A DNA stretch of 64,000 nucleotides from Luteibacter yeojuensis (GCF_000964085.1 NZ_JZRB01000029.1:36397-100396), one strand, 5' to 3'. Shown: positions 40,361 through 59,901, counted from the first letter of the stretch. Notes: generated from the sequence alone by a model not told the origin. Translations and numbers: made by a program.

Positions 40361-41086
40361 CTAACGCTTCGCCACGTACCCCTTACGCGCCATCGTTGCC
40401 TCAACCGCGGCCTCGACATCCGCGATGACCTTCGCCAGCGGCTGGTCCGCATCGATGTCGACGACATGCGCGCCGCTGTACTTCAGCAGTGGTGTCACTT
40501 CGATCTTGCGCCGCAGGGCGTCGCGGCGATGGTCGGGCTTGCGCTGGCACGCGACATCGAGGCTGACGTTGAGGCGAAGCACCAGGTCGGGCCTGTAGCC
40601 CGCCATCCAGTCGAACACCTTGCGCTCATGGCGTGCCATGCGCACGACGGCCCACGAGCCTTGCGTGGTGTCGGGGAAGCCGGGGCCGTCGTAGGCACCG
40701 GGGATCTCCACCTGCGGGAAGCGATCGGTGACGACGATGAGGCCGCGTTTGCGCATGGCCAGCATGCGCTTGAAGCGGCGCTGGCGGCGCAGGGTGAACG
40801 CACTGATGACCAGCGAGGGCAGGAATTCCGGCTGCTTGCCGTCCTTGATGCGATCGTTGACGCCATCGGATTTGCGGCGGATGAGGCGATCGATGGCAGG
40901 CCCGATGAGCGGCCACCTTGCCATCGCCCGGCCGATGTTGCCTGACTGCTTGCCGAGATGCGCCTGCCCGGCGGGGCCATAGCGGGTGATCCACTGGGCG
41001 ACGTGTTCGGACACGGTCGATTTGCCCGAGCCATCGGTACCGATGATGGCGATGAGGGGCGCGAGGGTGTCAGCGTTCGCCGGCAT
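40361..41086 (-). CDS. P-loop nucleotide-kinase-like protein (Tmk/CoaE-like), paralog 1 of 3.
   Basis: Walker A 'IIGTDGSGKSTV' and 'VVTDRFPQVE' (DR[YF] motif), 241 aa. Confidence 0.55.
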   Translation of the reverse strand: MPANADTLAPLIAIIGTDGSGKSTVSEHVAQWITRYGPAGQAHLGKQSGNIGRAMARWPLIGPAIDRLIRRKSDGVNDRIKDGKQPEFLPSLVISAFTLRRQRRFKRMLAMRKRGLIVVTDRFPQVEIPGAYDGPGFPDTTQGSWAVVRMARHERKVFDWMAGYRPDLVLRLNVSLDVACQRKPDHRRDALRRKIEVTPLLKYSGAHVVDIDADQPLAKVIADVEAAVEATMARKGYVAKR

Positions 41087-41197
41087 GCATGTTCCACGTT
41101 CAAGAGGGAGTCAAAACGCCTCGCTGCGTGGACGAACCCGCCAGCCGGGGCATAACATAACTGTCATCTTAAGCAATCAAGCCACGGTAGGCCTAGC

Positions 41198-41914
41198 GTG
41201 TCGCAACGCCCCCCACCCTCTTCCCGCCTGCCCATCATCGCCCTAACCGGTTGCGATGGCTCGGGAAAATCCACGCTGGCGGCCGGCCTTGTCGACCACC
41301 TCGGCCGCTCCGTGCGCGTCGAGCAGGTGTACCTGGGCCAGGCCTCGGGGCGCATCGGCGAGTGGGTTCGCGGGTTGCCGCTCATCGGTGGGCCCGTGGG
41401 CCGTTACCTTGTCGGCAAGTCCGACAAGGTGCATGACAAGCCGAAGCTCGCGCCGGGCGCCGTCACCGCGCTGGCCATCTACCTGCTATCGCGCGGGCGT
41501 GCCCGCCATCTCCGCCGCGCGCTTGCGCTTTGCGAAGCCGGCACCGTGGTGGTCACCGACCGCTACCCGCAGGATGAAGTGCCTGGCTTCCTGTTCGACG
41601 GCCCGGAGCTTGCGAAGACCACCGGCGGCAGCTGGTGGGTGCGTTGGCTGCGCGAGCGCGAGCGCCGCCTTTACGCATGGATGGTGGGCTACGTGCCCGC
41701 GCTTGTCATCCGCCTCAACGTGGATGAGGCCACCGCGCACGCGCGCAAGCCCGACCACAAGCTCTCGTCGCTGCGGGCCAAGATCGCCACCCTACCCGGC
41801 CTCACGTTCAACGGCGCAAGCATCCTCGACCTTGATGGGCGCGATAGCGCACCCCATGTGCTGGATGCCGCATTGCGCGCCGCGCACGCGGCACTCGCCC
41901 CAGCGCCGCACTGA
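41198..41914 (+). CDS. P-loop nucleotide-kinase-like protein, paralog 2.
   Basis: 'IALTGCDGSGKSTLA' and 'VVTDRYPQDE'. It aligns colinearly with paralogs 1 and 3. Confidence 0.55.
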   Translation: MSQRPPPSSRLPIIALTGCDGSGKSTLAAGLVDHLGRSVRVEQVYLGQASGRIGEWVRGLPLIGGPVGRYLVGKSDKVHDKPKLAPGAVTALAIYLLSRGRARHLRRALALCEAGTVVVTDRYPQDEVPGFLFDGPELAKTTGGSWWVRWLRERERRLYAWMVGYVPALVIRLNVDEATAHARKPDHKLSSLRAKIATLPGLTFNGASILDLDGRDSAPHVLDAALRAAHAALAPAPH

Positions 41915-41921
41915 ACGCCCC

Positions 41922-42650
41922 ATGGACATGCCTAGCCAAGACGCCCCGTTCCCGCCTGTCGCCGGCCTCATCGCCGTCGTCGGTTGCGATGGCACGGGCA
42001 AATCGACCATCACGCACGAACTCGTGGCGCGCCTCGCGCCGCGCACGCGCGTGGTGCGCCGTTACCTGGGGCTTATTTCCGGCGAGAGCGGCGCGAAGAT
42101 CAAGGAGCTGCCGCTCATCGGCCCGCGCCTTGAAAAGCGCCTGGCCGCCAAGGCCGCGCACGCACAGGACATGAAGAACGCCGCGCCCGGGTTCTGGGGC
42201 GCGCTCATCATGGTGGGCCTCTCCTACTGGCGCGCCGCGCACCTGCGCCGCGTCTGCCGCCTGGCCGAATCGGGCACGCTCGTCATCACCGATCGCTACC
42301 CGCAAGCCGAGGCCAGCGGTTTCCGCTACGACGGCCCCGGCCTGGGCGTGGCGCGCAGCAACTCGTGGCTGGTGCGCAAGCTGGCCGAACGCGAGGTGCG
42401 CCTGTACCAGCGCATGGCGCGCTACCGCCCCAGCCTCGTCATCAAGCTCAACATCGACGTGGCCACGGCGTATGCGCGCAAGCCCGACCACAGCCGCTCG
42501 GAACTCGCCGACAAGATCGCCGTGATGGCGCGCCTGCGTTACAACGGCGCGCCGCTGGTCGAGATCGATACGCGCGCGCCGCTCGCCGACGTGCTGCACC
42601 ACGCGCTGGATGCCGTCACGCGTGCCACCCCTGCCCTCGAGACGCCATGA
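41922..42650 (+). CDS. P-loop nucleotide-kinase-like protein, paralog 3. It is the internal segment of ORF-track entry 41256..42650, whose upstream part is an out-of-frame artefact over paralog 2.
   Basis: 'VVGCDGTGKSTI' and 'VITDRYPQAE'. ATG at 41922, 8 bp after the stop of paralog 2. Confidence 0.55.
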   Translation: MDMPSQDAPFPPVAGLIAVVGCDGTGKSTITHELVARLAPRTRVVRRYLGLISGESGAKIKELPLIGPRLEKRLAAKAAHAQDMKNAAPGFWGALIMVGLSYWRAAHLRRVCRLAESGTLVITDRYPQAEASGFRYDGPGLGVARSNSWLVRKLAEREVRLYQRMARYRPSLVIKLNIDVATAYARKPDHSRSELADKIAVMARLRYNGAPLVEIDTRAPLADVLHHALDAVTRATPALETP

Positions 42651-43402
42651 ACACCACACCGATGGAAACCCCGCAGGCGCCGCTGTGGCGCCGGTTGCTG
42701 ATCCGCGGCGGCAAGCGTTTCCTGCGCTGGAGCGGCGATTTCGAGGCGAAGCATTCGCTGGTGGCCACCACGCCCGTGCTCGACAACGGCACGTTCGACT
42801 GGGTGCCCCGCCTGGAAGCCGCATGGCCCGAGATCCGCGCCGAACTCGACCATATCCTCGAGCACCCCGAGGACATCCCGGCTTTCCATCAGATATCCCC
42901 CGACCAGAAGCGCATCTCCAAGGGCGATAACTGGAAAACCTTTGGTTTCTACGTCTACGGCAAGCGCGTGGACGAGAACTGCGCCGTGTGCCCCAGGACG
43001 GCCGCCGTACTCGATACGCTGCCCGGCATGCGCAGCGCGATGTTCTCGATCCTGAAGCCCGGGTACCACATCGCCCCCCACAAGGGGCCCACCCGGGCGG
43101 TCATCCGGGCCCACCTCGGCGTCATGGTGCCGAAAGACTGGCGTAACGTTTGGATCAGGGTCCACGACCAGTTCCTGCACTGGCACGAGGGCAAGGTCGT
43201 GCTATTCGACGACAGTTATGAGCACGAGGTTAAGAACGACACGGACGAGCTCCGGGCCGTGCTTTTCATCGATATCGACCGCCCCATGGACAAGCTCGGA
43301 ACCGCCTTTAACCGATTGATTTTCTGGCTTATCCAGGCATCGCCGTATGTGCGCCAGCCGCTGAAGAACATCCAGGCCTGGGGCCGTGCCAGGGGCCGGT
43401 GA
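42647..43402 (+). CDS. Aspartyl/asparaginyl β-hydroxylase-family Fe(II)/2OG dioxygenase, LpxO/OlsC-like lipid hydroxylase.
   Basis: 'SILKPGYHIAPHKGP' and a later His, matching the Asp β-hydroxylase His-x-Asp...His region. ATGA coupling to paralog 3 of the kinases. Confidence 0.6.
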   Translation: MNTTPMETPQAPLWRRLLIRGGKRFLRWSGDFEAKHSLVATTPVLDNGTFDWVPRLEAAWPEIRAELDHILEHPEDIPAFHQISPDQKRISKGDNWKTFGFYVYGKRVDENCAVCPRTAAVLDTLPGMRSAMFSILKPGYHIAPHKGPTRAVIRAHLGVMVPKDWRNVWIRVHDQFLHWHEGKVVLFDDSYEHEVKNDTDELRAVLFIDIDRPMDKLGTAFNRLIFWLIQASPYVRQPLKNIQAWGRARGR

Positions 43403-43591: not shown

Positions 43592-45352
43592 ATGAGTGCA
43601 GACGGTTCCATCCCGAATCGTGGCGTCAGCGCCACGCCCACGCACAACACGGTGCCCCTGCGCCGTGCTGACTTCGCGACGCTCGCCGACGCGCTCGATT
43701 ACGCGGCGAAGGGTGTCACGGGTGCGAATTTCCATGCCGGCGGCAAGCTGGTCACAGCCATGCCCTATCGCGCCCTGCGCGTGCAGGCCATGGACCTGGC
43801 CCGCCGCCTCGCATCGCTGGCCTTGCCGCGCGGTTCGCGCGTCGCCATCGTCGCGGAAACCTCGCCCGAATTCGTCAGGTTCTTCTTCGCCTGCCAGTAC
43901 ATCGGCCTCGTGCCGGTGGCGCTGCCGTCGACGATCAACCTGGGCGGCCACGATGCCTTCGTGCACAAGATGCGCGGCATGCTCGAAGCGTGCGGCGCCG
44001 CCGTGGCCGTGGCGTCGGAGTCGTTCCAGCGTTTCCTCGAGGAAGCCGTGCGCGGCCTCGACATCGTGATGTGGGGCGAGCCGTCGGCCTTCGATAGCCT
44101 GCCGCTCGACAGCGCGCCGCTGCAGCCCACCGGCGAAGACGAAGTGGCCTACCTGCAGTTCACCTCGGGCAGCACCGGCACGCCCAAGGCGGCGGTGATC
44201 ACCGAGCGCGCGCTGATGGCCAACCTGCGTGGCTCCAGCGACGATGGCCTGGCGTTGCGCGACGACGATCGCTTCGTGTCGTGGCTGCCGTTCTACCATG
44301 ACATGGGCCTGGTCGGCTGCCTGCTCACCGTGATGGCCGCGCAGCGCTCCATCGACTACCTCGATACGCGCGAATTCGCGATGCGCCCGCGCCGCTGGCT
44401 CGAACTCATGAGCCAGTCGAAGGCCACCATCGCCTACAGCCCGCCGTTCGGCTACGACATGTGCGCGCGCCGCGTGCGCCCGGGCGACATCGCCTCGTAC
44501 GATCTCTCGCACTGGCGTGCCGCCGGCATCGGTGCCGAGCCGATCATGCCGAACGTGCCCGCGCGTTTCGCCGAGCTGCTCGCGCCTGCCGGCTTCGACG
44601 CGAAGGCGTTCGTGCCGTCCTATGGCATGGCCGAAGCGTCGCTGGCCGTCAGCTTCGCACCGGTGGGCCGTGGCGTCGTCGTCGACTGGCTCGACCCCGT
44701 CGAGCTATCTGAAAACCTGCGCGCCCGGCCGATGCCGGAGGGCCGCGGCACGCCGTTCGTGCGCTGCGGCGCCGCCATCGCGGGCCACGCCATGGAGATT
44801 CGCGACGACGCGGGCAACGTGCTTGCCGAGCGCCGCGTGGGCCGCATCATGGTGCGTGGCCCCAGCCTCATGTCGGGCTATTTCCTGCAGCCGGCCAAGT
44901 CGGCGCAGGTGCTGTCGGCCGATGGCTGGCTCGATACCGGCGATGTCGGCTACATGGTCGACGGCGAAGTGGCGATCACGGGCCGGCACAAGGACATGAT
45001 CATCATCAACGGCCGCAACATCTGGCCGCAGGATATCGAGCACATCGTGGAACGCCAGCCCGAGCTGCGTTCGCAGGATGCCTCGGCGTTCGGCGTGCCC
45101 GGCGCGAATGGCACCGAGACCGCCGTGGTGGTCGTCCAGTGCAACACCGACGATGTGGCCGTCCGCACCGCCCTCGTGCAGCGCGTGCGCCGCGAGATCT
45201 TCGAGGCCCTGGCCATCGACTGCATCATCGAGCTGGTGCCGCGCCACACGCTGCCACGCACCTCGTCGGGCAAGCTCTCGCGCTCGGCCACGCGTAGCGG
45301 TTACCTCGAGCGCCAGGCACTCATGCAGGTACCGTTGGCCTCTGGGGCGTGA
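43592..45352 (+). CDS. Fatty acyl-AMP ligase / acyl-ACP synthetase (ANL superfamily).
   Basis: 'YLQFTSGSTGTPKAAVIT' (AMP-binding motif I), 'YGMAEA' and 'SSGKLSR'. An AT-rich promoter region lies upstream. Confidence 0.75.
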   Translation: MSADGSIPNRGVSATPTHNTVPLRRADFATLADALDYAAKGVTGANFHAGGKLVTAMPYRALRVQAMDLARRLASLALPRGSRVAIVAETSPEFVRFFFACQYIGLVPVALPSTINLGGHDAFVHKMRGMLEACGAAVAVASESFQRFLEEAVRGLDIVMWGEPSAFDSLPLDSAPLQPTGEDEVAYLQFTSGSTGTPKAAVITERALMANLRGSSDDGLALRDDDRFVSWLPFYHDMGLVGCLLTVMAAQRSIDYLDTREFAMRPRRWLELMSQSKATIAYSPPFGYDMCARRVRPGDIASYDLSHWRAAGIGAEPIMPNVPARFAELLAPAGFDAKAFVPSYGMAEASLAVSFAPVGRGVVVDWLDPVELSENLRARPMPEGRGTPFVRCGAAIAGHAMEIRDDAGNVLAERRVGRIMVRGPSLMSGYFLQPAKSAQVLSADGWLDTGDVGYMVDGEVAITGRHKDMIIINGRNIWPQDIEHIVERQPELRSQDASAFGVPGANGTETAVVVVQCNTDDVAVRTALVQRVRREIFEALAIDCIIELVPRHTLPRTSSGKLSRSATRSGYLERQALMQVPLASGA

Positions 45353-46287
45353 CAACGGTCGCGCTCACGGGCGCCACCGGGTTCATCGGCGCGGCCCTTT
45401 GCGATGCCCTGGTGCAGGCGGGTTACCACGTCCGCGCGTTGTACCGTCCGCGCAATGGCCGGGTGATGCACAGCACGCCCGGCGTGAAATGGGTCGCGGG
45501 TGACCTCGGGGACGATGACGCGCTGGCCGCCCTCGTGCAGGATGCCGAGGTGGTGGTCCATTGCGCGGGCAGTGTCCGCGGGGCCACCCGGGACGCGTTC
45601 GACCGAGTGAACGAACAGGGCACGCTGCGCGTGGCGCAGGCCGCCGTGCGCGGTGGCGCGGCCCGGCGTTTCCTGCTCATCTCGTCGCTGGCCGCGCGCG
45701 AGCCGCAGTTGTCGGATTACTCGCGCAGCAAGCACCTCGGCGAACAGGCGCTGGCCGCGAACGCGGGCGCGATGCAGTGGGCGGCGATCCGCCCGCCTGC
45801 CGTCTACGGCCCCGGCGACAAGGAGATGCTGCCGCTGTTCGAGGGCATGGCCAAGGGCCTGGCGCCGATCCCCGGCGACGGCAAGGGCCGCTTCTCGATG
45901 ATCCACGTGGCGGACCTGGCCTCGGCGGTCTGCGCGTGGGTCGGCCAGCCCGGGGCAAGCGGCGCGATCTACGAGATCGACGACGGCCACCCGCGCGGGT
46001 ACGACTGGGACACGGTGCTCGCCACCGCGTCGGCCGTGTTGCGCGGCGGCGCGCCCATCCGCCGGCTCACCATCCCGGTGCCCGTGCTGCGCACCATCGC
46101 GGCGGTGAACCGCACCGCGGCCCGCGTGTTCGGCTACGCGCCCATGCTGACGCCGGGGAAGGTGCGCGAGGTGACCCACGCCGATTGGGTGGGCCACGAC
46201 AACAACATATTCATGCAAGCGACGGGGTGGCACCCCGTCGTCTCATTCGAACAAGGTCTAGCGGCATTGAGTGGAGTATCCCGGTGA
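45349..46287 (+). CDS. NAD-dependent epimerase/dehydratase (SDR) family protein, a CerR-like ketoreductase candidate.
   Basis: 'VALTGATGFIGAALCDAL' (Rossmann). 4-bp overlap with the FAAL. Confidence 0.7.
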   Translation: MTTVALTGATGFIGAALCDALVQAGYHVRALYRPRNGRVMHSTPGVKWVAGDLGDDDALAALVQDAEVVVHCAGSVRGATRDAFDRVNEQGTLRVAQAAVRGGAARRFLLISSLAAREPQLSDYSRSKHLGEQALAANAGAMQWAAIRPPAVYGPGDKEMLPLFEGMAKGLAPIPGDGKGRFSMIHVADLASAVCAWVGQPGASGAIYEIDDGHPRGYDWDTVLATASAVLRGGAPIRRLTIPVPVLRTIAAVNRTAARVFGYAPMLTPGKVREVTHADWVGHDNNIFMQATGWHPVVSFEQGLAALSGVSR

Positions 46288-46535
46288 ACCATCAGGACGT
46301 CGTGGCACAGCTCGTCGACATCGTCACCCCCATGGCCGAAGGGCGCGTGGCCAACATCACCGCGGACACCGGGCTCACCGGTGAGCTCGCGTTCGATTCG
46401 CTGAAGGTCATGGACCTGATGCTGGCGGTGGAAGACCATTTCGATATTTCCGTGCCGGTGAACGCGCTGGCCGATATCCGCACCGTGGGTGAGCTGGCCA
46501 CGCTTATCGAAACCGTGGCGGGCAAGCACGCATGA
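46284..46535 (+). CDS. Acyl carrier protein, GTG start.
   Basis: 'LAFDSLKVMDLM' carries the DSL phosphopantetheine site. It is an 83 aa protein coupled at both ends. Confidence 0.65.
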   Translation: MNHQDVVAQLVDIVTPMAEGRVANITADTGLTGELAFDSLKVMDLMLAVEDHFDISVPVNALADIRTVGELATLIETVAGKHA

Positions 46536-47716
46536 GGGAGAACCCGCGGCTGCAGGCGGTGCGTGCCGTGCGCCAGGAACTGGCCACGCTGGGCATCGAC
46601 CCGTTCGGCACCCAGATCGACGAGATCATCACCCCAACCGAAGGGCTGATCCACGGGCGCCGCACCATCCTCGCCGGCACCAACAACTACCTCGGGCTCA
46701 CGTTCGACGCCGATACCATCGGCGCGGCGCGCGAGGCGCTGGACCACGCGGGCACGGGCACCACGGGCTCGCGCATGGCCAACGGCAGCTACGCCGGCCA
46801 CCGTGCGCTCGAGACCGAGCTGGCCGAGTACTACGGCAAGCGCGACGGCATCGTGTTCTCCACGGGCTACCAGGCCAACCTGGGCATGATCTCGGCGCTG
46901 GCCGGCCCGGGCGATACGGTGATGATCGACGCCGACAGCCACGCCAGCATCTACGATGGCTGCAAGCTGAGCGGCGCCGACACCATCCGCTTCCGCCACA
47001 ACGACGCCGCCGACCTGGGCAAGCGCCTGCGCCGCCTTGGCGACAAGGCCGCCGGCACGCTGGTGGTGGTCGAGGGCGTGTACAGCATGCTCGGCGATCG
47101 CGCGCCGCTGCGCGAATTCGTCGACGTGGCGAAGCAGTACGGTGCCGTGCTGATGGTCGACGAGGCCCACTCGCTGGGCGTGCTCGGCGCGAAGGGCCGC
47201 GGCGTGGCCGAAGAAGCCGGCGTGCTCGACGAGGTGGATTACATCGTCGGCACCTTCAGCAAGAGCCTCGGCAACACCGGCGGCTTCTGCGTGGGCGATT
47301 CGGCCGACATGGACGTGCTGCGCTACGCCAGCCGCCCCTACGTGTTCACCGCCTCGCTGCCGCCGGCGACCATCGCCGCGACGCGCCAGGCGCTGCGCAA
47401 GCTGGCCGCGGCGGACGACCTCCGCCAGCGCCTGCGCGAGAACGCCGAACGCCTGCATGCCGGCCTGGCGAAGCTGGGCTTCCGCCTCGGCGCGGCCCCC
47501 AATGCCGTCGTCGCCGTGCTGGCGGGCGAGAAGCTCGAGGCCCTGCGCTTCTGGGACCACCTGCTGAAGCAGGGCGTGTACGTGAACGTGATGGTGCCGC
47601 CGGCCACGCCCAGCGACGAATCCCTGCTCCGCTGCAGCGTCAGCGCCGCCCACACCCCGGCGCAGATCGACGCCATTTGCGCCGCGTTTGCCAGCTGGCC
47701 GGGCGCGAGAGTGTAA
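46532..47716 (+). CDS. Serine palmitoyltransferase-like α-oxoamine synthase, PLP-dependent.
   Basis: 'GTFSKSLG' is the PLP lysine. It is a 394 aa protein with the AOS-family layout (BioF/KBL/Spt). Its context with ACP, acyl-ACP synthetase and SDR favours Spt. Confidence 0.7.
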   Translation: MRENPRLQAVRAVRQELATLGIDPFGTQIDEIITPTEGLIHGRRTILAGTNNYLGLTFDADTIGAAREALDHAGTGTTGSRMANGSYAGHRALETELAEYYGKRDGIVFSTGYQANLGMISALAGPGDTVMIDADSHASIYDGCKLSGADTIRFRHNDAADLGKRLRRLGDKAAGTLVVVEGVYSMLGDRAPLREFVDVAKQYGAVLMVDEAHSLGVLGAKGRGVAEEAGVLDEVDYIVGTFSKSLGNTGGFCVGDSADMDVLRYASRPYVFTASLPPATIAATRQALRKLAAADDLRQRLRENAERLHAGLAKLGFRLGAAPNAVVAVLAGEKLEALRFWDHLLKQGVYVNVMVPPATPSDESLLRCSVSAAHTPAQIDAICAAFASWPGARV

Positions 47717-47744
47717 TAACCATGGTCCACGCCGCGATCCGACG

Positions 47745-49082
47745 ATGAAGCACTGGTTCTCCGACGGCGCGTTCCGCGCCATCGTGCGCAACGCGACTTA
47801 CCTGGGTTCGAGCAACGTCATTGGCGCGCTGCTCGGCCTGCTTGCGCTCGCGTGCGCGGGCCGGGCCATGACGCCCGAGCTGTTCGGCACCCTTGTGGTG
47901 GTGCAGGCCTACGCCAAGAGCGTCAGCGATTTCGTCAAGTTCCAGACCTGGCAGTTTGTCGTCCAGTTCGGCACCCCCGCCCTCGCCCACCGCGACCTCG
48001 GCCGCTTCCGCGACGTAGCCAGTTTCTCGTTCGGCCTGGACCTCGCCAGTGGCGTCATCGCCATGGTCGGCGGCATGGCCCTGCTGCCGCTGCTGGGCCA
48101 TGCGGTGGGCATCACGCCGCAGGATTTCTGGTGGGCGCTGGGCTACTGCACGCTCATCCCCACGATGACCGCGGCGACGCCCACCGGCATACTGCGCGCC
48201 ATCGACCGCTTCGACCTCATCGCCGTACAGCAGGGCATCACGCCGTTCCTGCGCGCCATCGGCAGCGTCATCGCCTACTACGGCCACCTCGGTTTCCCGG
48301 GTTTTATCGCCACGTGGTATGTCTCGAGCCTGGCGGGCGACGGCACGCTGTGGTGGTTCGCGGTGCGCGAACTGCGCCGCCAGGATATCCACCATGCGTT
48401 GCGCCCGGGCCTGTTCGGCGTGGCGCGCCGCATCAAGGGCGCGTGGGATTTCGTCTGGACCACCAACTTCGCGCACTCGATCTGGTCGGCGCGCAACGCG
48501 GGCACCAACGTGCTCGTGGGCATCGTGCTGGGCCCGGCCGCCGCGGGTGTGTTCAAGGTGGCGCTGACCTTCTTCGATGCCGCCGGCACGCCGGCCTCGC
48601 TGATGCAGAAAAGCTTCTACCCCGAGGTGCGCCGCCTCGACCCCACCACCACGCGCCCGTGGAAGCTCGGCCTGCGCTCGGCGGCGCTCGCCGGCGGCCT
48701 GGGCATCCTCGTCGCGTTGCTGGTCATCCTGGTGGGCAAGCCACTCATCGGCGGCGTGTTCGGCAAGCAATACCTCGAGGCGTACGACATCCTCCAGGTG
48801 ATGTCCGCCGCGCTGGTCGTCTCCATGGCCGGCTTCCCGCTCGAATCGCTGCTCTACATCGCCAGCCGCCAGCGTGCCGCGCTGGTGGCCCAGGCCCTCG
48901 CCGCCGTGGTGTACGTCGTGCTGCTGGTCGCCCTCGCCCACGCCATGGGCATCATGGGCGCCGCCATCGCGTACTTCGCGGGCCAGTGCCTCGAGGCCGG
49001 CTTCTCGCTCATACCCACGGTGGCCGCCTACCGGCGGCGCCACACGCTGTCGTACTACTCGCCCGGGGAGGCCCGCCCATGA
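47745..49082 (+). CDS. Polytopic membrane protein, Wzx/MurJ-like oligosaccharide or lipid flippase family (MOP superfamily).
   Basis: About 12 hydrophobic helices and 445 aa. ATG at 47745. Confidence 0.5.
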   Translation: MKHWFSDGAFRAIVRNATYLGSSNVIGALLGLLALACAGRAMTPELFGTLVVVQAYAKSVSDFVKFQTWQFVVQFGTPALAHRDLGRFRDVASFSFGLDLASGVIAMVGGMALLPLLGHAVGITPQDFWWALGYCTLIPTMTAATPTGILRAIDRFDLIAVQQGITPFLRAIGSVIAYYGHLGFPGFIATWYVSSLAGDGTLWWFAVRELRRQDIHHALRPGLFGVARRIKGAWDFVWTTNFAHSIWSARNAGTNVLVGIVLGPAAAGVFKVALTFFDAAGTPASLMQKSFYPEVRRLDPTTTRPWKLGLRSAALAGGLGILVALLVILVGKPLIGGVFGKQYLEAYDILQVMSAALVVSMAGFPLESLLYIASRQRAALVAQALAAVVYVVLLVALAHAMGIMGAAIAYFAGQCLEAGFSLIPTVAAYRRRHTLSYYSPGEARP

Positions 49083-49918
49083 ACGCGTACCAGGGCCTTC
49101 GCTGGCAACGGTTCCCGAAAGAAACGCTGCGCCGCCTGTTCGACGCCGTGGACACCGACGATGTGGTCGATGCCCACACCGCGCTGCCCGACCCCATCGT
49201 CCTGGCGTGCCCGCAGGAATGGATCGAGCGCTGCTACGCCCTGTGCCTGCAGTTCTGGGAAGACGGCTTCACCCGCGCCGAGCTGCTCCAGCTCGTGGAG
49301 AAACTGCTGCGCAACGAAGGCCTCAGCGCCGATGAGCGCCTGCAGTACAAGCACATCCGCGCCCGCTACAAGCACCTGCGCTTCGCGCAGCGCCTGTACG
49401 GCAAGCACCACCGGTCGGGCTTCGTGTTCGACCTCACCACGCGGGTGATGGGCCACCTGCAGGATGCGTTCCGCGGCGGCAACCGCGGCGGCGTGGTGCG
49501 CCAGGGCCTGAAGCTGAAGCTGCTGCTCTCGCGGCCGGTGTGGCGCATGGTGCGCCGCGGCCTCGTCAACACGGTGCTCGACGACGAGGCCGGCTTCGTC
49601 GCGTTCCAGCAGGCCGAGATGCGCCGGTTGCGCAAGGCCATGGTGCGCACCTCGTTCGCCGGCGACCAGTTCCACACCGTGCGCAAGATCGTCAGCATGC
49701 AGGTGTCGTACTACGACACGCTGCGCTCGTTCGGCCCGAACGAGCACGCGTTCCGCATGTCACGCTTCCTCGCGGCCATCAACGGCCTCATGGGCTACCG
49801 CCATGACGAGATGGTGGCCGACGACATGTCGGGGCGGCGCGACTACAACACGCCCACGCCGCTGGCCACGCAGACGCGGACGCGCATCGAAACCCTTATC
49901 GCGCACTACCCGCTCTAG
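49079..49918 (+). CDS. Hypothetical protein of 279 aa, the last gene of the lipid operon.
   Basis: ATGA overlap with the flippase stop. It is Arg-rich and helical, with no recognised motif. Confidence 0.45.
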   Translation: MNAYQGLRWQRFPKETLRRLFDAVDTDDVVDAHTALPDPIVLACPQEWIERCYALCLQFWEDGFTRAELLQLVEKLLRNEGLSADERLQYKHIRARYKHLRFAQRLYGKHHRSGFVFDLTTRVMGHLQDAFRGGNRGGVVRQGLKLKLLLSRPVWRMVRRGLVNTVLDDEAGFVAFQQAEMRRLRKAMVRTSFAGDQFHTVRKIVSMQVSYYDTLRSFGPNEHAFRMSRFLAAINGLMGYRHDEMVADDMSGRRDYNTPTPLATQTRTRIETLIAHYPL

Positions 49919-51231
49919 GGCTGCCAGCCGCCACCCAGGGCCAGGATGAGGTCCACGCTGGCGCCGAGGCGCCGGCGGCGCAGCTCGAAGTCCCCACGGC
50001 CTGCCGTAACCGCGGCATTGGCGGCATCGACCACGGTGGTGTAATCGGCCACGCCCTCGCGGTACTGGTTCTGCACGACGCGATCGGATTCGGCCGCGGC
50101 CGCCGCGGCTTTCGCTTGCAGCTCCGCGGCGCTTGCCAGGGTCGAGGTATCGACGAGGCCATCCTCCACTTCGCGGTAGGCGTCGAGCACCGTCTGCCGG
50201 TAATTGGCCACGGCTTCGTCGTATGCGGCGTTGGCGTGCTGCTCGTTGCCCTCGAGGCGGCCACCGGCGAACAGCGGTGCCTTCGCGTCCACGGTGCCGG
50301 TCGGGCCCCGGCGCACGCCGATGCCGGCCGCAAGGCTGATCGACGGCAGGGTCTGCGCCTTGGCGACGCCACGGCCCGCGCTGGCGGCGGCCATGCGCCG
50401 TTCGCTGGCCACCACGTCAGGGCGGCGTTCGAGCAGCGTGGCCGGCACGCCCGCGGGGATCTCGGGCACGGCCGTATCGAACGGCGCGGGGGCGATCGTA
50501 AATGACTCCGGTGGCTGGCCCAGCATCACGGCGATGGCATGCTCGAGCTTGGCGCGCGCGCTGCGCGCATCGGCCAGCTGCAGCTGCGCATTGCTCGCGC
50601 GCACCAGCGCGTCGGCCACGTTGGCGCGGGAGACCTGGCCCTGCGCGTACTGGTTCTGCGCCATCTCGTGCCACTTCAGGCCCGCCTCGGCGGCGTGCTC
50701 GAGCAGCGGCAGCGCCGCGTCCTCGGCCCGCAGCGCGAAGTAGCTCTGCACCACGCGCGCCTGCATCGACAGCGTGGCACCGGCGAGGTCCGCACTGCTT
50801 GCCTGCGCGAGCGCGCGATGGGCTTCGACATCGCGGCGGATGCGGCCCCACAGGTCGAGGTCCCAGCTCACGCCGACGCCGAAGTCGTTCTCGTTGCGGC
50901 GGCCGGATTTGAGCGAGCCCAGGCCCACCTCGGGGTACGCGGCGCCCTGCGCTTCCTTCACCAGCGCATCGGCCTCGCGCACGCGCGCGGCCGCGGCGGC
51001 AAGCGACGGGTTGTTCACGGCCACCTGGGCGACCAGGGCATCGAGTGCCGGGTCGTGGTAGATGGCCCACCACGTGCCCGCGGGTAGCGGCGTCGCGGTG
51101 GCCGCGGCCTGCGCTTCCTTGAACGCGGCGGGCGTCGCGACGCCCGGCCGCACATAGTCGGGGCCGACCGTGCAGGCGCCGAGCGCGACGACCGAGCCGG
51201 CCACCAGCCAGGGGCGGAGGAAGGTCTTCAT
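49915..51231 (-). CDS. RND efflux outer-membrane lipoprotein, NodT/OprM family.
   Basis: The lipobox 'VVALGAC' and OEP repeats. It overlaps the upstream pump gene by 4 bp. Confidence 0.75.
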   Translation of the reverse strand: MKTFLRPWLVAGSVVALGACTVGPDYVRPGVATPAAFKEAQAAATATPLPAGTWWAIYHDPALDALVAQVAVNNPSLAAAAARVREADALVKEAQGAAYPEVGLGSLKSGRRNENDFGVGVSWDLDLWGRIRRDVEAHRALAQASSADLAGATLSMQARVVQSYFALRAEDAALPLLEHAAEAGLKWHEMAQNQYAQGQVSRANVADALVRASNAQLQLADARSARAKLEHAIAVMLGQPPESFTIAPAPFDTAVPEIPAGVPATLLERRPDVVASERRMAAASAGRGVAKAQTLPSISLAAGIGVRRGPTGTVDAKAPLFAGGRLEGNEQHANAAYDEAVANYRQTVLDAYREVEDGLVDTSTLASAAELQAKAAAAAAESDRVVQNQYREGVADYTTVVDAANAAVTAGRGDFELRRRRLGASVDLILALGGGWQP

Positions 51232-54200
51232 GCGGGGCGGCGGGCGCCGGACTGCTGCAGCCATTGGCTTGTCCATCTGCTGAAACGATCAAGGTAGAGG
51301 TACACCACCGGCGTGGTGTAAAGGGTGAGGAGCTGGCTCACCACCAGGCCACCGCCCATGGCGATGCCCAGGGGCTGGTGCATCTCGGCGCCGTTGCCGC
51401 GCGAGACCGCGAGCGGCACGGCGGCCACCATCACCGCCAGCGTGGTCATCAGGATGGGCCGGAAGCGCAGGCGGCACGCTTCCTGGATGGCCTCCAGCGG
51501 TGCCAGGCGGCCGTCGCGGCTCGCCACCAGGGCGAAGTCCACCATCATGATGGCGTTCTTCATGACGATGCCGGTGAGCGCGAAGATGCCGACAAGGGCG
51601 ATCACGTCCAGGTCGGTGCCGAACAGCAGCAGCGCGAACACCGCGCCCACCGCCGCCGAAGGCAAGGTCGAGAGGATGGTCACCGGGTGCATGCAGCTCT
51701 CGTAGAGGATGCCGAGCACGATGAACAGCGTCAGGAAGGCGGCCACGATGAGCGCTGGCTCGCTGTCCGCCACCTGGCGCGCCGCGCCGGCCGAACCCTG
51801 GAAGCTGCCACGCACCGCGCTCGGCACCGCGAGCGACCCCACGGCACGTTCGATGGCCTGCGAGGCCCTGGCCAGCGAAACCCCGGGCGCACGGTCGAAC
51901 GACACGGTCGCGGCGACAGCCTGCCCGTAGTGCGCGATATCCAGCGGCGTGTCGAAGGCACGCACGCTGCCGACGGCGAGCAGCGGCACGCTGCCACCCC
52001 CGGCCGCGGGCACGCGCAGCGCGTCGAACGCCTGCGCCGAACGCGCCTGCCCGGCGGCGACACCCATCAGCACGGGCACCTGGTCGGCGGCCGTGAACAC
52101 GGTCGCGACGCGGCGGTCGGCGAAGGCGTCGTGCAGCACCCCGTCGATGCCGGCCACCGTGAGGCCGGCCAGCGCAGCGGCGTCACGGTCGATGTCGATG
52201 GAGGTGGCGGCACCCGTGGCGCCTGCGCCGCCATGCACGTTGCGCAGCTCGGGCAGGCGTGCCATGGCCTCGACGATGCGCGGCGCCCACTGGCGCAGCA
52301 ATGCCGCGGAATCAGCCTGGATGGTGTACTCGCTGGAGGCGCGGCTGCGGCGGCCACCCACGCGGATGTTCTGCACCGAGGTGACGGTGGCGACGCCCCC
52401 TGCCCCCCCGGCGAGTTTCTGGTTTAGGCGCGCGGCGACATCGTCGGCGCTGGCATCGCGCTCGCCGACCGGCTTCAGGGTGACGAATAACGAGCCCTCG
52501 CCCCCTTCGAGGTAGCCGCCCACGGCGCCCACGGCGGGGTCGGCGCGCACGGTGGCGACGAAGCGCGCGAAGCCTGCCTTCGCCACGTCGAAGGCGGCGC
52601 TGCCGCCCGCGTCGAAGTCACCCGTCAGCTCGCCGGTATCCTGGCGCGGGAAGAAGCCCTTCGGCACCACGACATAGAGCCACACGCTGAGCACGATGAC
52701 GCCCAGCAACGAAAGCATCGTGAGTGGCGCGTGGCGAAGGGCCCGCGCCAGCGAGCGCATGTAGGCCGCCTGCAGGCGCGCGAGTGTGTCGTTGACCCGG
52801 CGGAACACCAGGCCATGCGCGGGCGTGGCACGCGACGGGCGCAGCCACAGGGCGCAGGCCATGGGCACGACGGTGAGCGAGACCACCAGCGAGACGGCGA
52901 TGACGGTGGCGATGGTGACCGAGAATTCGCGGACGAACAGGCCCACGTACCCGCCCATGAACAGCAGCGGGATGAAGACGGCGATGAGCACCGCGCTCAT
53001 CGAGACGACCGTGAGCCCCACCTCGCCGGCGCCGATGCGCGCGGCATCCCGCGGCGGCACGCCCGCCTCGAGGTGGCGGGCGATGTTCTCGACCACCACG
53101 ACGGCATCATCGACGGCAAAGCCCACGGCGATGGTCAGCGCCATCAGCGAGAGGATATCGAGGCTGTAGCCCAGCGCCTGCATCACCACCATGGCGCCGA
53201 GCAGCGCGATGGGCGCGACGGCGCTGGCAATGAGCGCGGCGCGCCAGTCGCGCAGGAAAACCAGCATGACGACCACCACCAGCACCACGGCCAGGGCCAG
53301 CGTGTGCTCCGCGGAACGCAGCGAGGCCCGCACGGTGGTGGCACGGTCGACGATGACACCCACGTGCATGTCGCCCGGCAGCGACGCGCGCAGCGCGGGC
53401 AGGCGCTGCGTGACGCCGTCGATCACGGCGATGGTGTTCGCCCCCGGCTTGTGCCGCACCAGGGCCAGCACCGCCGGTTCGCCGTTGGCGACGCCGAGCG
53501 TGCGCGGGTCGCGCACATCGTCCGCCACGCTCGCGATATCGCCCAGGCGCACGCTGGCGCCACCGTGGTGGGCGACGACCAGGCCGCGGAAGGCCTGCGC
53601 CGAATCGAGCTGGCCGTTCATGGCCACCTGCAACGCGCGGCCACCGGCCTCGACCACGCCGGTGGGGGTATGCGTGACGGCACCGCCCACGGCGCGGCGC
53701 ACGTCGGCGAACGACACGCCGCGCTGGTCCATCGCCGCCGGGTCCAGGGCGATGCGGAACGCGGGTACCGAGCTGCCGACGAGTTCCACGTCGCCGACGC
53801 CGTCGACCTGGGCCAGCGCCTGCGTGAACGTCGTGGACGCCACCGCGTACATCTGCGCGGGCGTGGCCTGCCGCGACGTCAGCGACAGCACCAGCACCGG
53901 CGCGTCGGCCGAGCTCACTTCGCGGTAGGCCGGGCTGCCGGCCATGTCCGGCGGCAGGTCGCCGCGCGCGGCGTTGAGCGCCGCCTGCACGTCGCGTGCG
54001 GCACCCACGCTGCTGCGCGAGAGATCGAAGGCCAGGCGGATATCGGTCTGCCCCGCCGTGTTCACCGAGGTCATCTCGGTGAGCCCCGCGATGCGCCCCA
54101 GCGAGCGCTCGAGCGGGGTCGCCACGGCGGCCACCATCGTCGCGGGGCTCGCGCCAGGCAGCGACGCCGAGACCTTGATGGTCGGCACGTTCACTTCAGG

Positions 54201-54311
54201 CATCGAGGCGATGGGCAGCAGGCGCCACGCCACCGCACCGGCGATCACCAGGCCCAGGCACAGCAGCGTCGTCGCCACCGGCCGGTCGATGAACAGCCGC
54301 GAGAGGTTCAC
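51228..54311 (-). CDS. mdtC: RND multidrug efflux permease, MdtC-like.
   Basis: 'MNLSRLFIDRPVATTLL' and 1027 aa. Confidence 0.8.
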   Translation of the reverse strand: MNLSRLFIDRPVATTLLCLGLVIAGAVAWRLLPIASMPEVNVPTIKVSASLPGASPATMVAAVATPLERSLGRIAGLTEMTSVNTAGQTDIRLAFDLSRSSVGAARDVQAALNAARGDLPPDMAGSPAYREVSSADAPVLVLSLTSRQATPAQMYAVASTTFTQALAQVDGVGDVELVGSSVPAFRIALDPAAMDQRGVSFADVRRAVGGAVTHTPTGVVEAGGRALQVAMNGQLDSAQAFRGLVVAHHGGASVRLGDIASVADDVRDPRTLGVANGEPAVLALVRHKPGANTIAVIDGVTQRLPALRASLPGDMHVGVIVDRATTVRASLRSAEHTLALAVVLVVVVMLVFLRDWRAALIASAVAPIALLGAMVVMQALGYSLDILSLMALTIAVGFAVDDAVVVVENIARHLEAGVPPRDAARIGAGEVGLTVVSMSAVLIAVFIPLLFMGGYVGLFVREFSVTIATVIAVSLVVSLTVVPMACALWLRPSRATPAHGLVFRRVNDTLARLQAAYMRSLARALRHAPLTMLSLLGVIVLSVWLYVVVPKGFFPRQDTGELTGDFDAGGSAAFDVAKAGFARFVATVRADPAVGAVGGYLEGGEGSLFVTLKPVGERDASADDVAARLNQKLAGGAGGVATVTSVQNIRVGGRRSRASSEYTIQADSAALLRQWAPRIVEAMARLPELRNVHGGAGATGAATSIDIDRDAAALAGLTVAGIDGVLHDAFADRRVATVFTAADQVPVLMGVAAGQARSAQAFDALRVPAAGGGSVPLLAVGSVRAFDTPLDIAHYGQAVAATVSFDRAPGVSLARASQAIERAVGSLAVPSAVRGSFQGSAGAARQVADSEPALIVAAFLTLFIVLGILYESCMHPVTILSTLPSAAVGAVFALLLFGTDLDVIALVGIFALTGIVMKNAIMMVDFALVASRDGRLAPLEAIQEACRLRFRPILMTTLAVMVAAVPLAVSRGNGAEMHQPLGIAMGGGLVVSQLLTLYTTPVVYLYLDRFSRWTSQWLQQSGARRPA

Positions 54312-59800: not shown

Positions 59801-59901
59801 CGAATTGGTACACCCATGGGTATAGGAAACTCGGGAACCAACGACCACGCCACGCGTTCTCAGCTCCATCGCCACGGAATGCTTCGGCCAGGGAAGGGGT
59901 T

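What the first reader, a model, noticed from the sequence alone, without database searches (positions are those of the whole stretch)
40361..43402. Three divergent paralogous Tmk/CoaE-like P-loop kinases coupled to an LpxO/OlsC-like hydroxylase
Three proteins of about 240 aa share a GxDG(S/T)GKST Walker A and a conserved TDR(Y/F)PQ motif, and are only moderately similar to each other (old duplications). One is divergently oriented. The other two sit in tandem 8 bp apart, and the last is ATGA-coupled to an Asp-β-hydroxylase-family dioxygenase, the family that includes the lipid A and ornithine-lipid hydroxylases LpxO and OlsC. The set lies directly upstream of the sphingolipid-like cluster. P-loop small-molecule kinases in triplicate next to lipid-modifying enzymes is not a combination I know. 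They could phosphorylate a lipid head-group or intermediate, or form a nucleotide-modifying system.
Basis: partly seen in the sequence, partly recalled or inferred. Interest (0 to 1): 0.7.

Follow-up and report, generated by a model that had tools for sequence, protein, structure and literature searches.

The report
Three sphingolipid-cluster kinases (YghT/S/R)
The three look-alike ATP-binding proteins are the counterparts of E. coli's uncharacterised YghT, YghS and YghR, and they travel with the sphingolipid-making genes across many bacteria, so they most likely add phosphate groups to a membrane sphingolipid, though nobody has tested this.

Summary
Three paralogous P-loop proteins of 238-242 aa (37-48% identical to each other) sit as one divergent gene plus a tandem pair. 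The last is ATGA-coupled to an Asp/Arg-hydroxylase-family gene, directly upstream of a genuine serine palmitoyltransferase (Spt) cluster. The window matches Luteibacter yeojuensis.

In 80 related loci from gamma- and betaproteobacteria the triad keeps its orientation (68 of 71). Spt lies within 10 kb in 58 of the 66 loci with full flanks. The gene after K3 is either the YghQ-type flippase (34 loci) or the hydroxylase (23 loci).

Other conserved neighbours:
- a CHAD-fold protein (a polyphosphate-binding fold) coupled to the flippase;
- a DgkA-family lipid kinase in 27 loci;
- PAP2 phosphatases;
- LptF2/G2 or an RND pump.

Best reading (untested): these are the head-group kinases of a sphingolipid pathway that lacks the Caulobacter Cpg enzymes, and they may build an oligophosphate on ceramide. 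The hydroxylase is an accessory acyl 2-hydroxylase. I found no published function.

The parts
40361..41086 (-). K1, the YghT ortholog: a Tmk-fold P-loop kinase, divergently transcribed from K2
   Evidence: ORF. 53% identical to E. coli YghT. 100% identical to a Luteibacter yeojuensis 'ATP-binding protein'. Walker A, DRxPQ and RKPDH motifs conserved across 71 orthologs.
41087..41197 (.). 111-bp divergent intergenic region between K1 and K2, a presumed bidirectional promoter region
   Evidence: Read directly from the sequence. The simple consensus scan found no sigma-70-like site here.
41198..41914 (+). K2, the YghS ortholog: a Tmk-fold P-loop kinase with a GTG start
   Evidence: 58% identical to E. 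coli YghS. Motifs conserved in 76 orthologs.
41922..42650 (+). K3, the YghR ortholog: a Tmk-fold P-loop kinase, starting 7 nt after the K2 stop
42647..43402 (+). Asp/Arg-hydroxylase-family dioxygenase (OlsC/LpxO-like), ATGA-coupled to K3; probably a sphingolipid acyl 2-hydroxylase
   Evidence: Pfam PF05118 at 175.5 bits. NCBIfam OlsC 225.5 bits against a cut-off of 450, and LpxO 113 bits against 500. Directly follows K3 in 23 of 80 related loci.
43592..45352 (+). AasR-type fatty acyl-AMP ligase (acyl-ACP synthetase of the sphingolipid pathway)
   Evidence: Pfam AMP-binding; NCBIfam NF006624 at 752 bits against a cut-off of 600. Role assigned by homology to the E. coli and Caulobacter AasR described in PMC9386255.
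45349..46287 (+). CerR-type NAD-dependent reductase (epimerase/dehydratase family)
   Evidence: Pfam Epimerase. Conserved synteny.
46284..46535 (+). AcpR-type dedicated acyl carrier protein
   Evidence: Pfam PP-binding. Conserved synteny.
46532..47716 (+). Serine palmitoyltransferase (Spt)
   Evidence: NCBIfam NF047599 at 614 bits against a cut-off of 500.
47688..49082 (+). YghQ-type MOP (Wzx-like) flippase; the start codon is uncertain
   Evidence: Pfam Polysacc_synt. 65% identical to full-length E. coli YghQ.
49079..49918 (+). CHAD-fold protein (279 aa), ATGA-coupled to the flippase
49915..58599 (-). RND efflux system: MFP 57397-58599, two ACR_tran pumps 54308-57445 and 51228-54311, and OEP 49915-51276, downstream of and coupled to yghO
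   Evidence: ORFs. The OEP and ACR_tran family names come from Pfam hits precomputed on the orthologous genes of the syntenic Dyella locus; the two large ORFs are 42% identical to each other and 24% identical to the window's other pump, which Pfam calls ACR_tran. The 400-aa ORF is called MFP from its position in the operon only; Pfam was not run on it. OEP adjacency in 13 of 80 related loci, and in Burkholderia and Methylotenera.
58596..59966 (-). YghO ortholog (bacterial ceramide synthase, acyl-CoA N-acyltransferase), ATGA-coupled to the MFP gene; the start codon is uncertain, and homology begins at about 59720
   Evidence: 48% identical to E. coli YghO. ATGA junction. yghO is listed as the CC_1154 counterpart needed for dihydroceramide synthesis in PMC9386255.

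Best explanation
K1, K2 and K3 are the orthologs of E. coli YghT, YghS and YghR. They form an ancient, co-inherited trio of thymidylate-kinase-fold ATP-dependent kinases, and the trio is the head-group-modifying module of the gamma/betaproteobacterial sphingolipid pathway.

Proposed pathway:
1. Ceramide is made by AasR, AcpR, Spt, CerR and YghO.
2. At the cytoplasmic face of the inner membrane the three kinases each add a phosphate at a different step.
3. Most likely they act after a DgkA-type lipid kinase has made ceramide-1-phosphate, so they would extend or multiply the phosphates, in the way Tmk converts a phosphomonoester to a diphosphate.
4. The anionic product is flipped by the YghQ-type MOP flippase, whose translationally coupled CHAD-fold partner may bind the phosphate-rich head group.
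5. The lipid is delivered to the outer membrane by LptF2/G2 (Enterobacterales) or by the RND pump coupled to yghO (this window).

The ATGA-coupled hydroxylase is an accessory, lineage-specific enzyme that most likely 2-hydroxylates an acyl chain of the same lipid.

Shown: orthology, fold, conservation of catalytic motifs in all three paralogs, and synteny. Inferred: kinase activity, lipid substrate, order of steps and the nature of the product.
For: Orthology and distribution
- The three proteins are 53%, 58% and 56% identical to E. coli YghT, YghS and YghR, in the same gene order.
- The triad sits in the K1(-) K2(+) K3(+) arrangement in 68 of 71 loci. Spt lies within 10 kb in 58 of the 66 loci with full flanks. 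The gene after K3 is the flippase in 34 loci and the hydroxylase in 23.
- Between this window and Serratia the kinases are as conserved as Spt: 54-60% for the kinases, 57% for Spt, 45% for AasR and 43% for CerR.

Active-site conservation and fold
- All three orthogroups keep the Walker A Lys-Ser-Thr, the Asp-Arg of DRxPQ, the YDG Asp, Glu158, RKPDH and Lys198. None looks like a dead paralog.
- The invariant DR-motif Arg is, in Tmk, the residue that binds the acceptor phosphate (established knowledge of Tmk).
- All three are strongly basic, with pI 9.7-10.0 and net charge +10 to +13.5, which suits anionic lipid or membrane surfaces.

Gene context
- The E. coli-type cluster has no glycosyltransferase, CDP-alcohol transferase or Cpg homolog. 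The kinases are the only candidate head-group enzymes.
- A DgkA-family lipid kinase is encoded in 27 of 80 loci, and it lies directly beside the kinase genes in Burkholderia, Carnimonas and Cernens.
- A CHAD-fold protein is coupled to the flippase.
- PAP2 lipid-phosphate phosphatases flank K1 in Methylophilaceae and lie near the cluster in Serratia.

Fusions and relatives
- A natural K2-K3 fusion protein exists.
- Relatives of the kinase domain are fused to MOP flippases and to a GT4 glycosyltransferase, or follow a flippase gene.
Against: - There is no biochemical or genetic evidence for any member. I found no functional paper on yghR, yghS or yghT.
- No sphingolipid product of this cluster type has been described in the papers I could read.
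- The kinases have no predicted transmembrane segment, and the hydrophobic-moment analysis gave no clear membrane anchor.
- The cluster DgkA is missing from most loci, including this window. The ceramide-1-phosphate step therefore rests on a housekeeping enzyme or on one of the three kinases.
- Eight of the 66 full loci have no Spt within 10 kb.
- E. coli K-12-like strains keep the triad after losing spt, which could point to an spt-independent role.
- The motif set DRYPQ/RKPDH is shared with relatives found in polysaccharide contexts, so the acceptor group may not be specific to ceramide.
Confidence: 0.55

Rival explanations
1. The three kinases act on soluble small molecules (a nucleotide, sugar, glycerate-like acid or similar). 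They would supply a phosphorylated or activated head-group precursor, which another protein then attaches to ceramide.
For: - The closest solved folds all act on soluble nucleotides or nucleosides.
- The proteins have no transmembrane segment.
- Sister proteins carry an N-terminal nucleotidyltransferase-like domain, which resembles kinase-plus-nucleotidyltransferase activation pairs.
- Caulobacter uses an activated donor, CDP-phosphoglycerate, made by CpgD (PMC12275187, abstract seen).
Against: - The E. coli and Serratia clusters encode no transferase that could attach such a precursor to ceramide.
- Three paralogous kinases for a single soluble precursor would be unusual.
- The proteins are strongly basic.
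- The kinase domain is fused or adjacent to flippases, which points to a membrane-proximal substrate.
Confidence: 0.2
2. The proteins are not kinases. They are accessory or regulatory P-loop ATPases that assemble with the MOP flippase or the export machinery, for example to gate or energise hand-over of the lipid.
For: - The kinase genes are constantly adjacent to the flippase, and domain fusions to flippases exist.
- All three are always inherited together, and a K2-K3 fusion suggests a complex.
Against: - The motifs conserved beyond the P-loop (the DR motif and the LID-like RKPDH) are those of phosphotransfer to an acceptor in the Tmk/NMP-kinase fold.
- From general knowledge, MOP flippases are not ATP-driven.
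- In Caulobacter, LptF2/G2 use LptB (bioRxiv 10.64898/2026.04.12.717747).
Confidence: 0.1
3. They are ordinary dTMP kinases or nucleotide-salvage paralogs, as the automatic annotation says ('dTMP kinase', 'nucleoside/nucleotide kinase family protein').
For: - PGAP and JGI use these names.
- The fold and the P-loop and DRY motifs resemble Tmk.
Against: - Scores are far below the family cut-offs. TIGR00041 gives 23-27 bits against 83.25, and PF02223 gives 16-25 bits against 27. Most of the matched stretches cover little more than the P-loop.
- About 80 of the 242 residues do not superpose on Tmk.
- In the hhalign mapping the thymine and deoxyribose contacts of E. coli Tmk (F74, T105, Y108) fall on aliphatic, Phe and Asp residues (low-confidence mapping).
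- The genes are triplicated and syntenic with spt.
- K-12 knockout strains of yghR, yghS and yghT exist, whereas tmk is an essential gene elsewhere in the chromosome (my own knowledge).
Confidence: 0.02
4. They belong to a nucleotide-modifying or anti-phage defence system that merely lies next to the lipid genes.
For: - P-loop kinases do occur in defence systems.
- Weak PADLOC hits to PDC-M51B and VakA.
Against: - The PADLOC hits cover only about 20 P-loop residues at E of 1e-4 to 1e-2.
- Synteny with spt is conserved across families and classes, unlike a mobile defence island.
- GC content is uniform across the region.
Confidence: 0.02

Closest known systems
E. coli YghT, YghS and YghR (uncharacterised ATP-binding proteins) within the yghT / yghS-yghR-yghQ ... 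lptF2-lptG2 / spt-acpR-cerR-aasR / yghO locus
   Same: One-to-one orthologs (53-58% identity) with the same gene order and orientation and the same flanking flippase and Spt genes.
   Different: The Luteibacter locus adds the hydroxylase after K3. It lacks the YtfJ-like and LptF2/G2 genes, and it couples yghO to an RND efflux operon instead.
Thymidylate kinase (Tmk; PF02223, TIGR00041)
   Same: Same P-loop NMP-kinase fold. Shares the GxDGxGKST P-loop, the DR(Y/F) motif and a LID region.
   Different: 17-21% identity and below the family thresholds. Has an insertion of about 30 residues between the P-loop helix and the DR strand. The nucleoside-contacting residues are not conserved. The proteins are very basic, triplicated and syntenic with lipid genes.
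Caulobacter CpgA/B/C/D ceramide (di)phosphoglycerate pathway, including the ceramide kinase CpgB
   Same: Genes that decorate ceramide with anionic phosphate-containing groups. They are encoded between spt and the transport genes and are needed for an LPS-like outer-membrane lipid (PMC10331486, PMC11324152).
   Different: CpgB has a DAG-kinase/LCB5 fold with a GGDG motif, not a P-loop. The Pfam scans of K1-K3, the flippase, the CHAD-fold protein, YghO and the ligase, reductase, ACP and Spt genes, and the precomputed Pfam hits in the Serratia, Dyella and Burkholderia loci, show no DAG-kinase catalytic domain or cytidylyltransferase; direct homology to the Cpg proteins was not tested. The chemistry here is probably phosphorylation only.
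OlsC (ornithine-lipid acyl 2-hydroxylase) and LpxO (lipid A acyl 2-hydroxylase)
   Same: The hydroxylase has a full-length Asp_Arg_Hydrox domain, and its best NCBIfam hits are OlsC and LpxO.
   Different: It scores half the OlsC cut-off and a quarter of the LpxO cut-off. It is embedded in a sphingolipid cluster, so it is probably a distinct subfamily acting on ceramide.
CHAD domains (polyphosphate-binding modules; PDB 6qv5, 3e0s, 6rn5)
   Different: The Pfam scan returned no CHAD match, even at E up to 10. It is coupled to a lipid flippase rather than to polyphosphate enzymes.

Membership tests
dTMP kinase (Tmk; TIGR00041 / PF02223) | Scores above the curated family cut-off over the full length | tested here: not met
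   TIGR00041 gives 23.4, 23.5 and 27.4 bits against a cut-off of 83.25. PF02223 gives 16.8, 16.3 and 24.9 bits against 27. Most of the matched stretches cover little more than the P-loop.
dTMP kinase (Tmk; TIGR00041 / PF02223) | P-loop GxxGxGK(S/T) and DR(Y/F/H) motif | tested here: met
   GxDG(S/T)GKST and DR(Y/F)PQ are invariant in all three orthogroups.
dTMP kinase (Tmk; TIGR00041 / PF02223) | Thymine- and deoxyribose-contacting residues (E. coli F74, T105, Y108) | tested here: inconclusive
   hhalign places aliphatic, Phe and Asp residues at these positions, while R78 and R100 align with invariant Arg residues.
dTMP kinase (Tmk; TIGR00041 / PF02223) | dTMP to dTDP activity; a housekeeping, essential role | not testable with these tools
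   Indirect evidence only: K-12 knockout strains of yghR, yghS and yghT exist, and the genes are triplicated inside a lipid cluster.
Tmk-like / NMP-kinase P-loop fold (superfamily level) | Three-dimensional fold similarity to solved members | tested here: met
   [not shown]
YghR / YghS / YghT orthologous groups | Best match to one E. coli paralog each, plus conserved synteny | tested here: met
   K1 best matches YghT (53%; 42% and 38% to the other two window paralogs). K2 best matches YghS (58%). K3 best matches YghR (56%). Gene order is the same.
CpgB-type bacterial ceramide kinase (LCB5 / DAG-kinase catalytic domain) | DAG-kinase catalytic domain with a GGDG ATP-binding motif | tested here: not met
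   CpgB features are taken from PMC10331486. K1-K3 show only P-loop families in Pfam and a Tmk fold.
Polyphosphate kinase 2 (PPK2) | Family-level sequence match, or the best structural match | tested here: not met
   [not shown]
Asp/Arg beta-hydroxylase family (PF05118) | Full-length domain match above the gathering score | tested here: met
   175.5 bits against 22.6, covering model positions 1-157 of 157.
OlsC / LpxO equivalogs | Score above the NCBIfam equivalog cut-off | tested here: not met
   OlsC 225.5 bits against 450; LpxO 113.3 bits against 500.
Asp/Arg beta-hydroxylase family (PF05118) | Fe(II)-binding histidines intact; hydroxylase activity on a lipid acyl chain | not tested
   Residue-level check not done. 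Activity cannot be tested here.
Rhodobacteria-type sphingolipid cluster (Spt, AcpR, AasR, CerR, bCerS/YghO) | All five ceramide-synthesis genes present | tested here: met
   Spt passes NF047599. The ligase, SDR and ACP are identified by Pfam and NCBIfam. The YghO ortholog lies at 58596-59966. The gene set is as defined in PMC9386255.
CHAD domain (for the 279-aa neighbour) | CHAD fold; Pfam CHAD model match | tested here: inconclusive
   [not shown]

The most novel reading that the evidence does not exclude
Most E. coli, together with Serratia, Erwinia, Pantoea, Rhodanobacteraceae, Methylophilaceae and others, may make a so-far undescribed lipid class: a ceramide carrying a pyro-, tri- or oligophosphate head group.

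In this reading a DgkA-type kinase makes ceramide-1-phosphate. The three Tmk-fold kinases YghT, YghS and YghR then each add one further phosphate, using NMP-kinase-like chemistry on a lipid phosphomonoester. A CHAD-fold protein recognises the oligophosphate and hands the lipid to the YghQ flippase. PAP2 enzymes trim it in the periplasm. The product would serve as an LPS-like anionic lipid of the outer membrane.
Probability: 0.2. Interest if true: 0.9.

Novelty: new variant of a known kind. Interest (0 to 1): 0.66.

Why it matters
Three of the remaining y-genes of E. coli (yghR, yghS, yghT) have no known function. Automatic annotation labels them dTMP kinases, which the family scores do not support. 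This analysis places them, with strong comparative evidence, in the sphingolipid pathway. About three quarters of complete E. coli genomes carry that pathway, and its final product is unknown.

If the kinases build the head group, this is a second route to anionic bacterial sphingolipids, chemically different from the Caulobacter ceramide-phosphoglycerate route. Such lipids affect outer-membrane stability, polymyxin sensitivity and virulence in Caulobacter.

The hypothesis can be tested directly with knockouts and lipidomics in standard laboratory strains such as BL21.

Tried and rejected
- I first suspected that the kinases were homologs of the Caulobacter ceramide kinase CpgB. This was rejected: CpgB has a DAG-kinase/LCB5 fold.
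- The other Cpg proteins are described as a CDP-DAG-synthase-like protein, a phosphoglycerate transferase and a cytidylyltransferase. None is a P-loop kinase.
- Defence-system membership: PADLOC gives only P-loop-level hits.
- PPK2 membership: no sequence hit, and a weaker structural match than Tmk.
- A search of solved structures by sequence found only weak Tmk and ABC P-loop hits.
- The afdb50 fold library was not available.
- A neighbour-joining tree of 231 paralogs timed out. Orthogroups therefore rest on best-hit assignment and identity ranges, and a few loci were clearly misassigned (a K2-K3 maximum identity of 1.00).
- The hydrophobic-moment analysis of the insertion helices gave no clear amphipathic membrane anchor.
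- The metagenome scan for the longer sister family returned only 17 loci, few with useful flanks.
- The window contains no cluster-linked DgkA, PAP2, LptF2/G2 or YtfJ homolog, and no canonical tmk.
The paper by Stankeviciute et al. (2022) was not held.


Full report
**What is there**

The region holds four genes exactly as described:
- K1: 40361-41086, minus strand, 241 aa.
- K2: 41198-41914, plus strand, 238 aa, GTG start.
- K3: 41922-42650, plus strand, 242 aa, starting 7 nt after the K2 stop.
- A 251-aa hydroxylase: 42647-43402, whose ATG overlaps the K3 TGA as ATGA.

The three kinase-like proteins are clear paralogs. BLASTP gives K1-K2 2e-49 (42% identity), K1-K3 4e-45 (37%) and K2-K3 1e-63 (48%). 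They share GxDG(S/T)GKST, DR(Y/F)PQ and a third invariant motif, RKPDH.

The hydroxylase matches Pfam Asp_Arg_Hydrox over the whole model (175.5 bits). Its nearest NCBIfam models are OlsC (225.5 bits, cut-off 450) and LpxO (113 bits, cut-off 500). It therefore belongs to the family but is not either named enzyme.

The genes immediately downstream form a genuine sphingolipid cluster:
- a fatty acyl-AMP ligase;
- an SDR reductase;
- a dedicated ACP;
- serine palmitoyltransferase (NF047599, 614 bits against a cut-off of 500);
- a MOP flippase.

K1 is 100% identical to a protein of Luteibacter yeojuensis, which identifies the source organism.

**What the three proteins are**

They are not dTMP kinases in the family sense. 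TIGR00041 gives 23-27 bits against a cut-off of 83, and PF02223 gives 16-25 bits against 27. Most of the matched stretches cover little more than the P-loop.

A profile of the family aligns with E. coli Tmk over 191 columns at 90% probability. In this alignment the P-loop, the DR motif and the LID correspond. The residues that contact thymine and deoxyribose in Tmk do not appear to be kept, but the alignment is weak at those positions.

There is an extra segment of about 30 residues between the P-loop helix and the DR strand, modelled with lower confidence.

All three proteins are very basic, with pI about 10 and net charge +11 to +16 here, and +10 to +13.5 on average across orthologs. E. coli Tmk has pI 5.3.

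**They are the E. coli y-genes yghT, yghS and yghR**

A scan of one genome per species with an alignment of K3 orthologs returned 80 loci. Several are from Escherichia.

In annotated E. coli genomes the locus reads: pitB | yghT (divergent) | yghS-yghR-flippase (full-length yghQ)-hypothetical-YtfJ-like-lptF-lptG | spt-ACP-reductase-acyl-AMP ligase (opposite strand) | yghO.

K1, K2 and K3 are 53%, 58% and 56% identical to YghT, YghS and YghR, each clearly closer to its own ortholog than to the other two.

In E. coli:
- 4605 of 5426 complete genomes carry at least 80% of the yghTSR DNA.
- 4068 of 5426 carry at least 80% of the block from spt to the ligase.

PGAP labels yghS and yghT 'dTMP kinase', which the family scores above do not support.

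From the literature:
- The E. coli B Spt, AcpR and AasR have been shown to work, and yghO is listed as the ceramide-synthase counterpart (PMC9386255).
- A 2026 preprint draws the E. coli UTI89 'sphingolipid operon' and shows that LptF2/G2 are needed for sphingolipid transport in Caulobacter (10.64898/2026.04.12.717747).
- None of the papers I could search says what YghR, YghS and YghT do.
- Knockout strains of all three exist in K-12.

**Linkage to the lipid genes**

I used tblastn with the window proteins against the 80 loci:
- All three paralogs are present in 71 loci.
- The arrangement K1(-) K2(+) K3(+) holds in 68 of those 71.
- Among the 66 loci with full 10-kb flanks, 58 have Spt within 10 kb and 62 have the full triad.
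- The gene following K3 is the flippase in 34 loci and the hydroxylase in 23.

The taxa include Rhodanobacteraceae, Serratia, Erwinia, Pantoea, Citrobacter, Escherichia, Mangrovibacter, Tatumella, Rahnella, Sodalis, Carnimonas, Methylophilaceae and several MAG lineages.

Between this window and Serratia the kinases are 54-60% identical. That is as conserved as Spt (57%) and more conserved than the ligase (45%) or the reductase (43%).

In every orthogroup the Walker A Lys-Ser-Thr, the DR motif, the YDG Asp, a Glu, RKPDH and a Lys are at least 96% conserved. All three therefore look catalytically competent. A few positions are fixed differently in each group, such as HLGK, YLGQ and YLGL after the second strand, which suggests different acceptors.

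A natural K2-K3 fusion protein exists.

The hydroxylase occurs in only 26 of the 80 loci. It is present in Rhodanobacteraceae, Methylophilaceae, Carnimonas, Burkholderia and a few others. It is an accessory gene, not a fixed partner.

**Other conserved neighbours that bear on mechanism**

2. DgkA-family lipid kinase. A PF01219 gene (105-108 bits) lies in 27 of 80 loci. It is next to yghO in Serratia, Erwinia and Pantoea, directly after the hydroxylase in Carnimonas and Cernens, and directly before K2 in Burkholderia. From my own knowledge, E. coli DgkA phosphorylates ceramide in vitro.

3. PAP2 lipid-phosphate phosphatases. These flank K1 in Methylophilaceae and some Lysobacterales MAGs, and lie near the cluster in Serratia.

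4. Export genes. Enterobacterales have the YtfJ-like gene plus LptF2/G2 (35-43 loci). In this window, yghO (58596-59966, minus strand) is instead ATGA-coupled to an MFP-RND-RND-OEP efflux operon. An OEP or RND gene adjoins the cluster in 13 loci, and in Burkholderia and Methylotenera.

5. No alternative head-group enzymes. The E. coli-type cluster has no glycosyltransferase, CDP-alcohol transferase or Cpg homolog.

**The wider family**

A profile search of 1.84 billion representative proteins found 2849 relatives at E up to 1e-3, and 305 at E up to 1e-30.

Many are proteins of about 500 aa with the kinase domain at the C-terminus, carrying the same DRYPQ and RKPDH motifs, preceded by a nucleotidyltransferase-like domain. 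Some are fused to a MOP flippase or to a GT4 glycosyltransferase. One such gene follows a flippase gene in a metagenomic contig, and weaker relatives lie in polysaccharide clusters, judged from reading the ORF translations by eye rather than from a family search.

The family as a whole is therefore tied to lipid-linked or exported envelope molecules and their flippases.

**Most likely mechanism**

The best-supported reading is that YghT, YghS and YghR are the head-group kinases of this sphingolipid pathway. They would replace the Caulobacter CpgA-D chemistry, in which the ceramide kinase CpgB has a DAG-kinase fold.

Two lines of evidence suggest that the three kinases add successive or multiple phosphates to ceramide phosphate:
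- The closest fold relatives transfer phosphate to a phosphomonoester, and the Arg that binds that phosphate is invariant here.
- A DgkA-type kinase, a CHAD-fold protein and PAP2 phosphatases recur in the clusters.

The product would be a highly anionic lipid that is flipped by YghQ and exported.

Orthology, fold, motif conservation and synteny are shown. Kinase activity, the lipid substrate, the order of steps and the product are inferred. I put 0.55 on the general statement and about 0.2 on the specific oligophosphate version.

By analogy with OlsC and LpxO, the hydroxylase probably 2-hydroxylates an acyl chain of the same lipid.

**Rivals**

- Kinases for a soluble head-group precursor (0.2). 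The fold relatives and the nucleotidyltransferase fusions favour this. The absence of any attaching transferase in the E. coli-type cluster counts against it.
- Non-kinase ATPases that assist the flippase (0.1). The conserved acceptor-side motifs count against this.
- Ordinary dTMP kinases (0.02). Family scores, triplication and synteny count against this.
- A nucleotide-modifying or defence system (0.02). PADLOC gives P-loop-only hits, and the synteny is stable across classes.

**Caveats**

- Eight of the 66 full loci have no Spt within 10 kb. K-12-like E. coli keep the triad although spt is deleted.
- Whole genomes were not examined, so co-occurrence is measured only within 10 kb.
- I could not test whether the triad and the cpg genes are mutually exclusive.
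- The residue-level comparison with Tmk rests on a weak alignment to a sequence recalled from memory.

**Verdict**

The finding is real and the lipid linkage is strong. Their function is nevertheless undescribed in everything I could search, and the context points to a head-group chemistry different from the one known bacterial phosphosphingolipid pathway. I rate it a new variant of a known kind, with interest 0.66.

Noticed in passing
[not shown]
   Followed up: yes
window 49915-59966 (-): The ceramide-synthase homolog yghO is ATGA-coupled to an MFP-RND-RND-OEP efflux operon. OEP or RND genes adjoin the sphingolipid cluster in Dyella, other Rhodanobacteraceae, Burkholderia and Methylophilaceae, where LptF2/G2 are absent. 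The pump is a candidate sphingolipid exporter.
   Followed up: partly
L019 1515-1895, L025 11078-11389, L043 11526-11858, L024 11783-12115, L088 8566-9105: A small DgkA-family integral-membrane lipid kinase (PF01219) is encoded in 27 of 80 related loci, often directly beside yghO or the kinase genes. None is present in this window.
   Followed up: partly
L087 10726-12434; also L037, L052, L055, L063, L083-L085: Pairs of PAP2 lipid-phosphate phosphatase genes flank the K1 ortholog in Methylophilaceae and Lysobacterales MAGs. A PAP2 gene also lies at the edge of the Serratia cluster (L001).
   Followed up: no
L086 (E. coli NZ_CP104123.1) and the E. coli genome collection: About 85% of complete E. 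coli genomes carry yghTSR and about 75% carry the block from spt to the ligase. PGAP names yghS and yghT 'dTMP kinase', which the family scores do not support. Some strains (L054, L056) have a deletion that removes the segment from the 3' part of the flippase gene (yghQ) through spt up to yghO, leaving yghTSR, a truncated flippase gene and yghO; from memory, K-12 has a similar deletion.
   Followed up: partly
P0361 (492 aa); P0399 and P0403 (about 500 aa); P0482 and P0499; P0451: A natural YghS-YghR fusion protein exists. There is also a large sister family with an N-terminal nucleotidyltransferase-like domain, and further fusions of the kinase domain to MOP flippases and to a GT4 glycosyltransferase.
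   Followed up: partly
window 35758-36507: A large imperfect inverted repeat (146-nt arms at 82% complementarity, plus 81-nt arms and two hairpins of about 40 nt) fills the intergenic region between a 219-aa ORF and a 337-aa ORF (36576-37589, minus strand) that looks like a LacI-type regulator by eye (no family search run). It may be two copies of a small repeat element.
   Followed up: no
window 37698-40163 (+) and 40187-40216: An 821-aa ORF that I take, from its translation and from memory, to be a membrane-bound PQQ glucose dehydrogenase (no family search was run) ends just before a strong terminator-like hairpin (13 bp, 11 G-C pairs). The hairpin separates it from the kinase genes, so the ORF is unrelated to the cluster.
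   Followed up: no
L009 17282-18979 and L012 17291-19068: Two Luteibacter genomes carry a tandem duplication of the CHAD-fold gene after the flippase.
   Followed up: no
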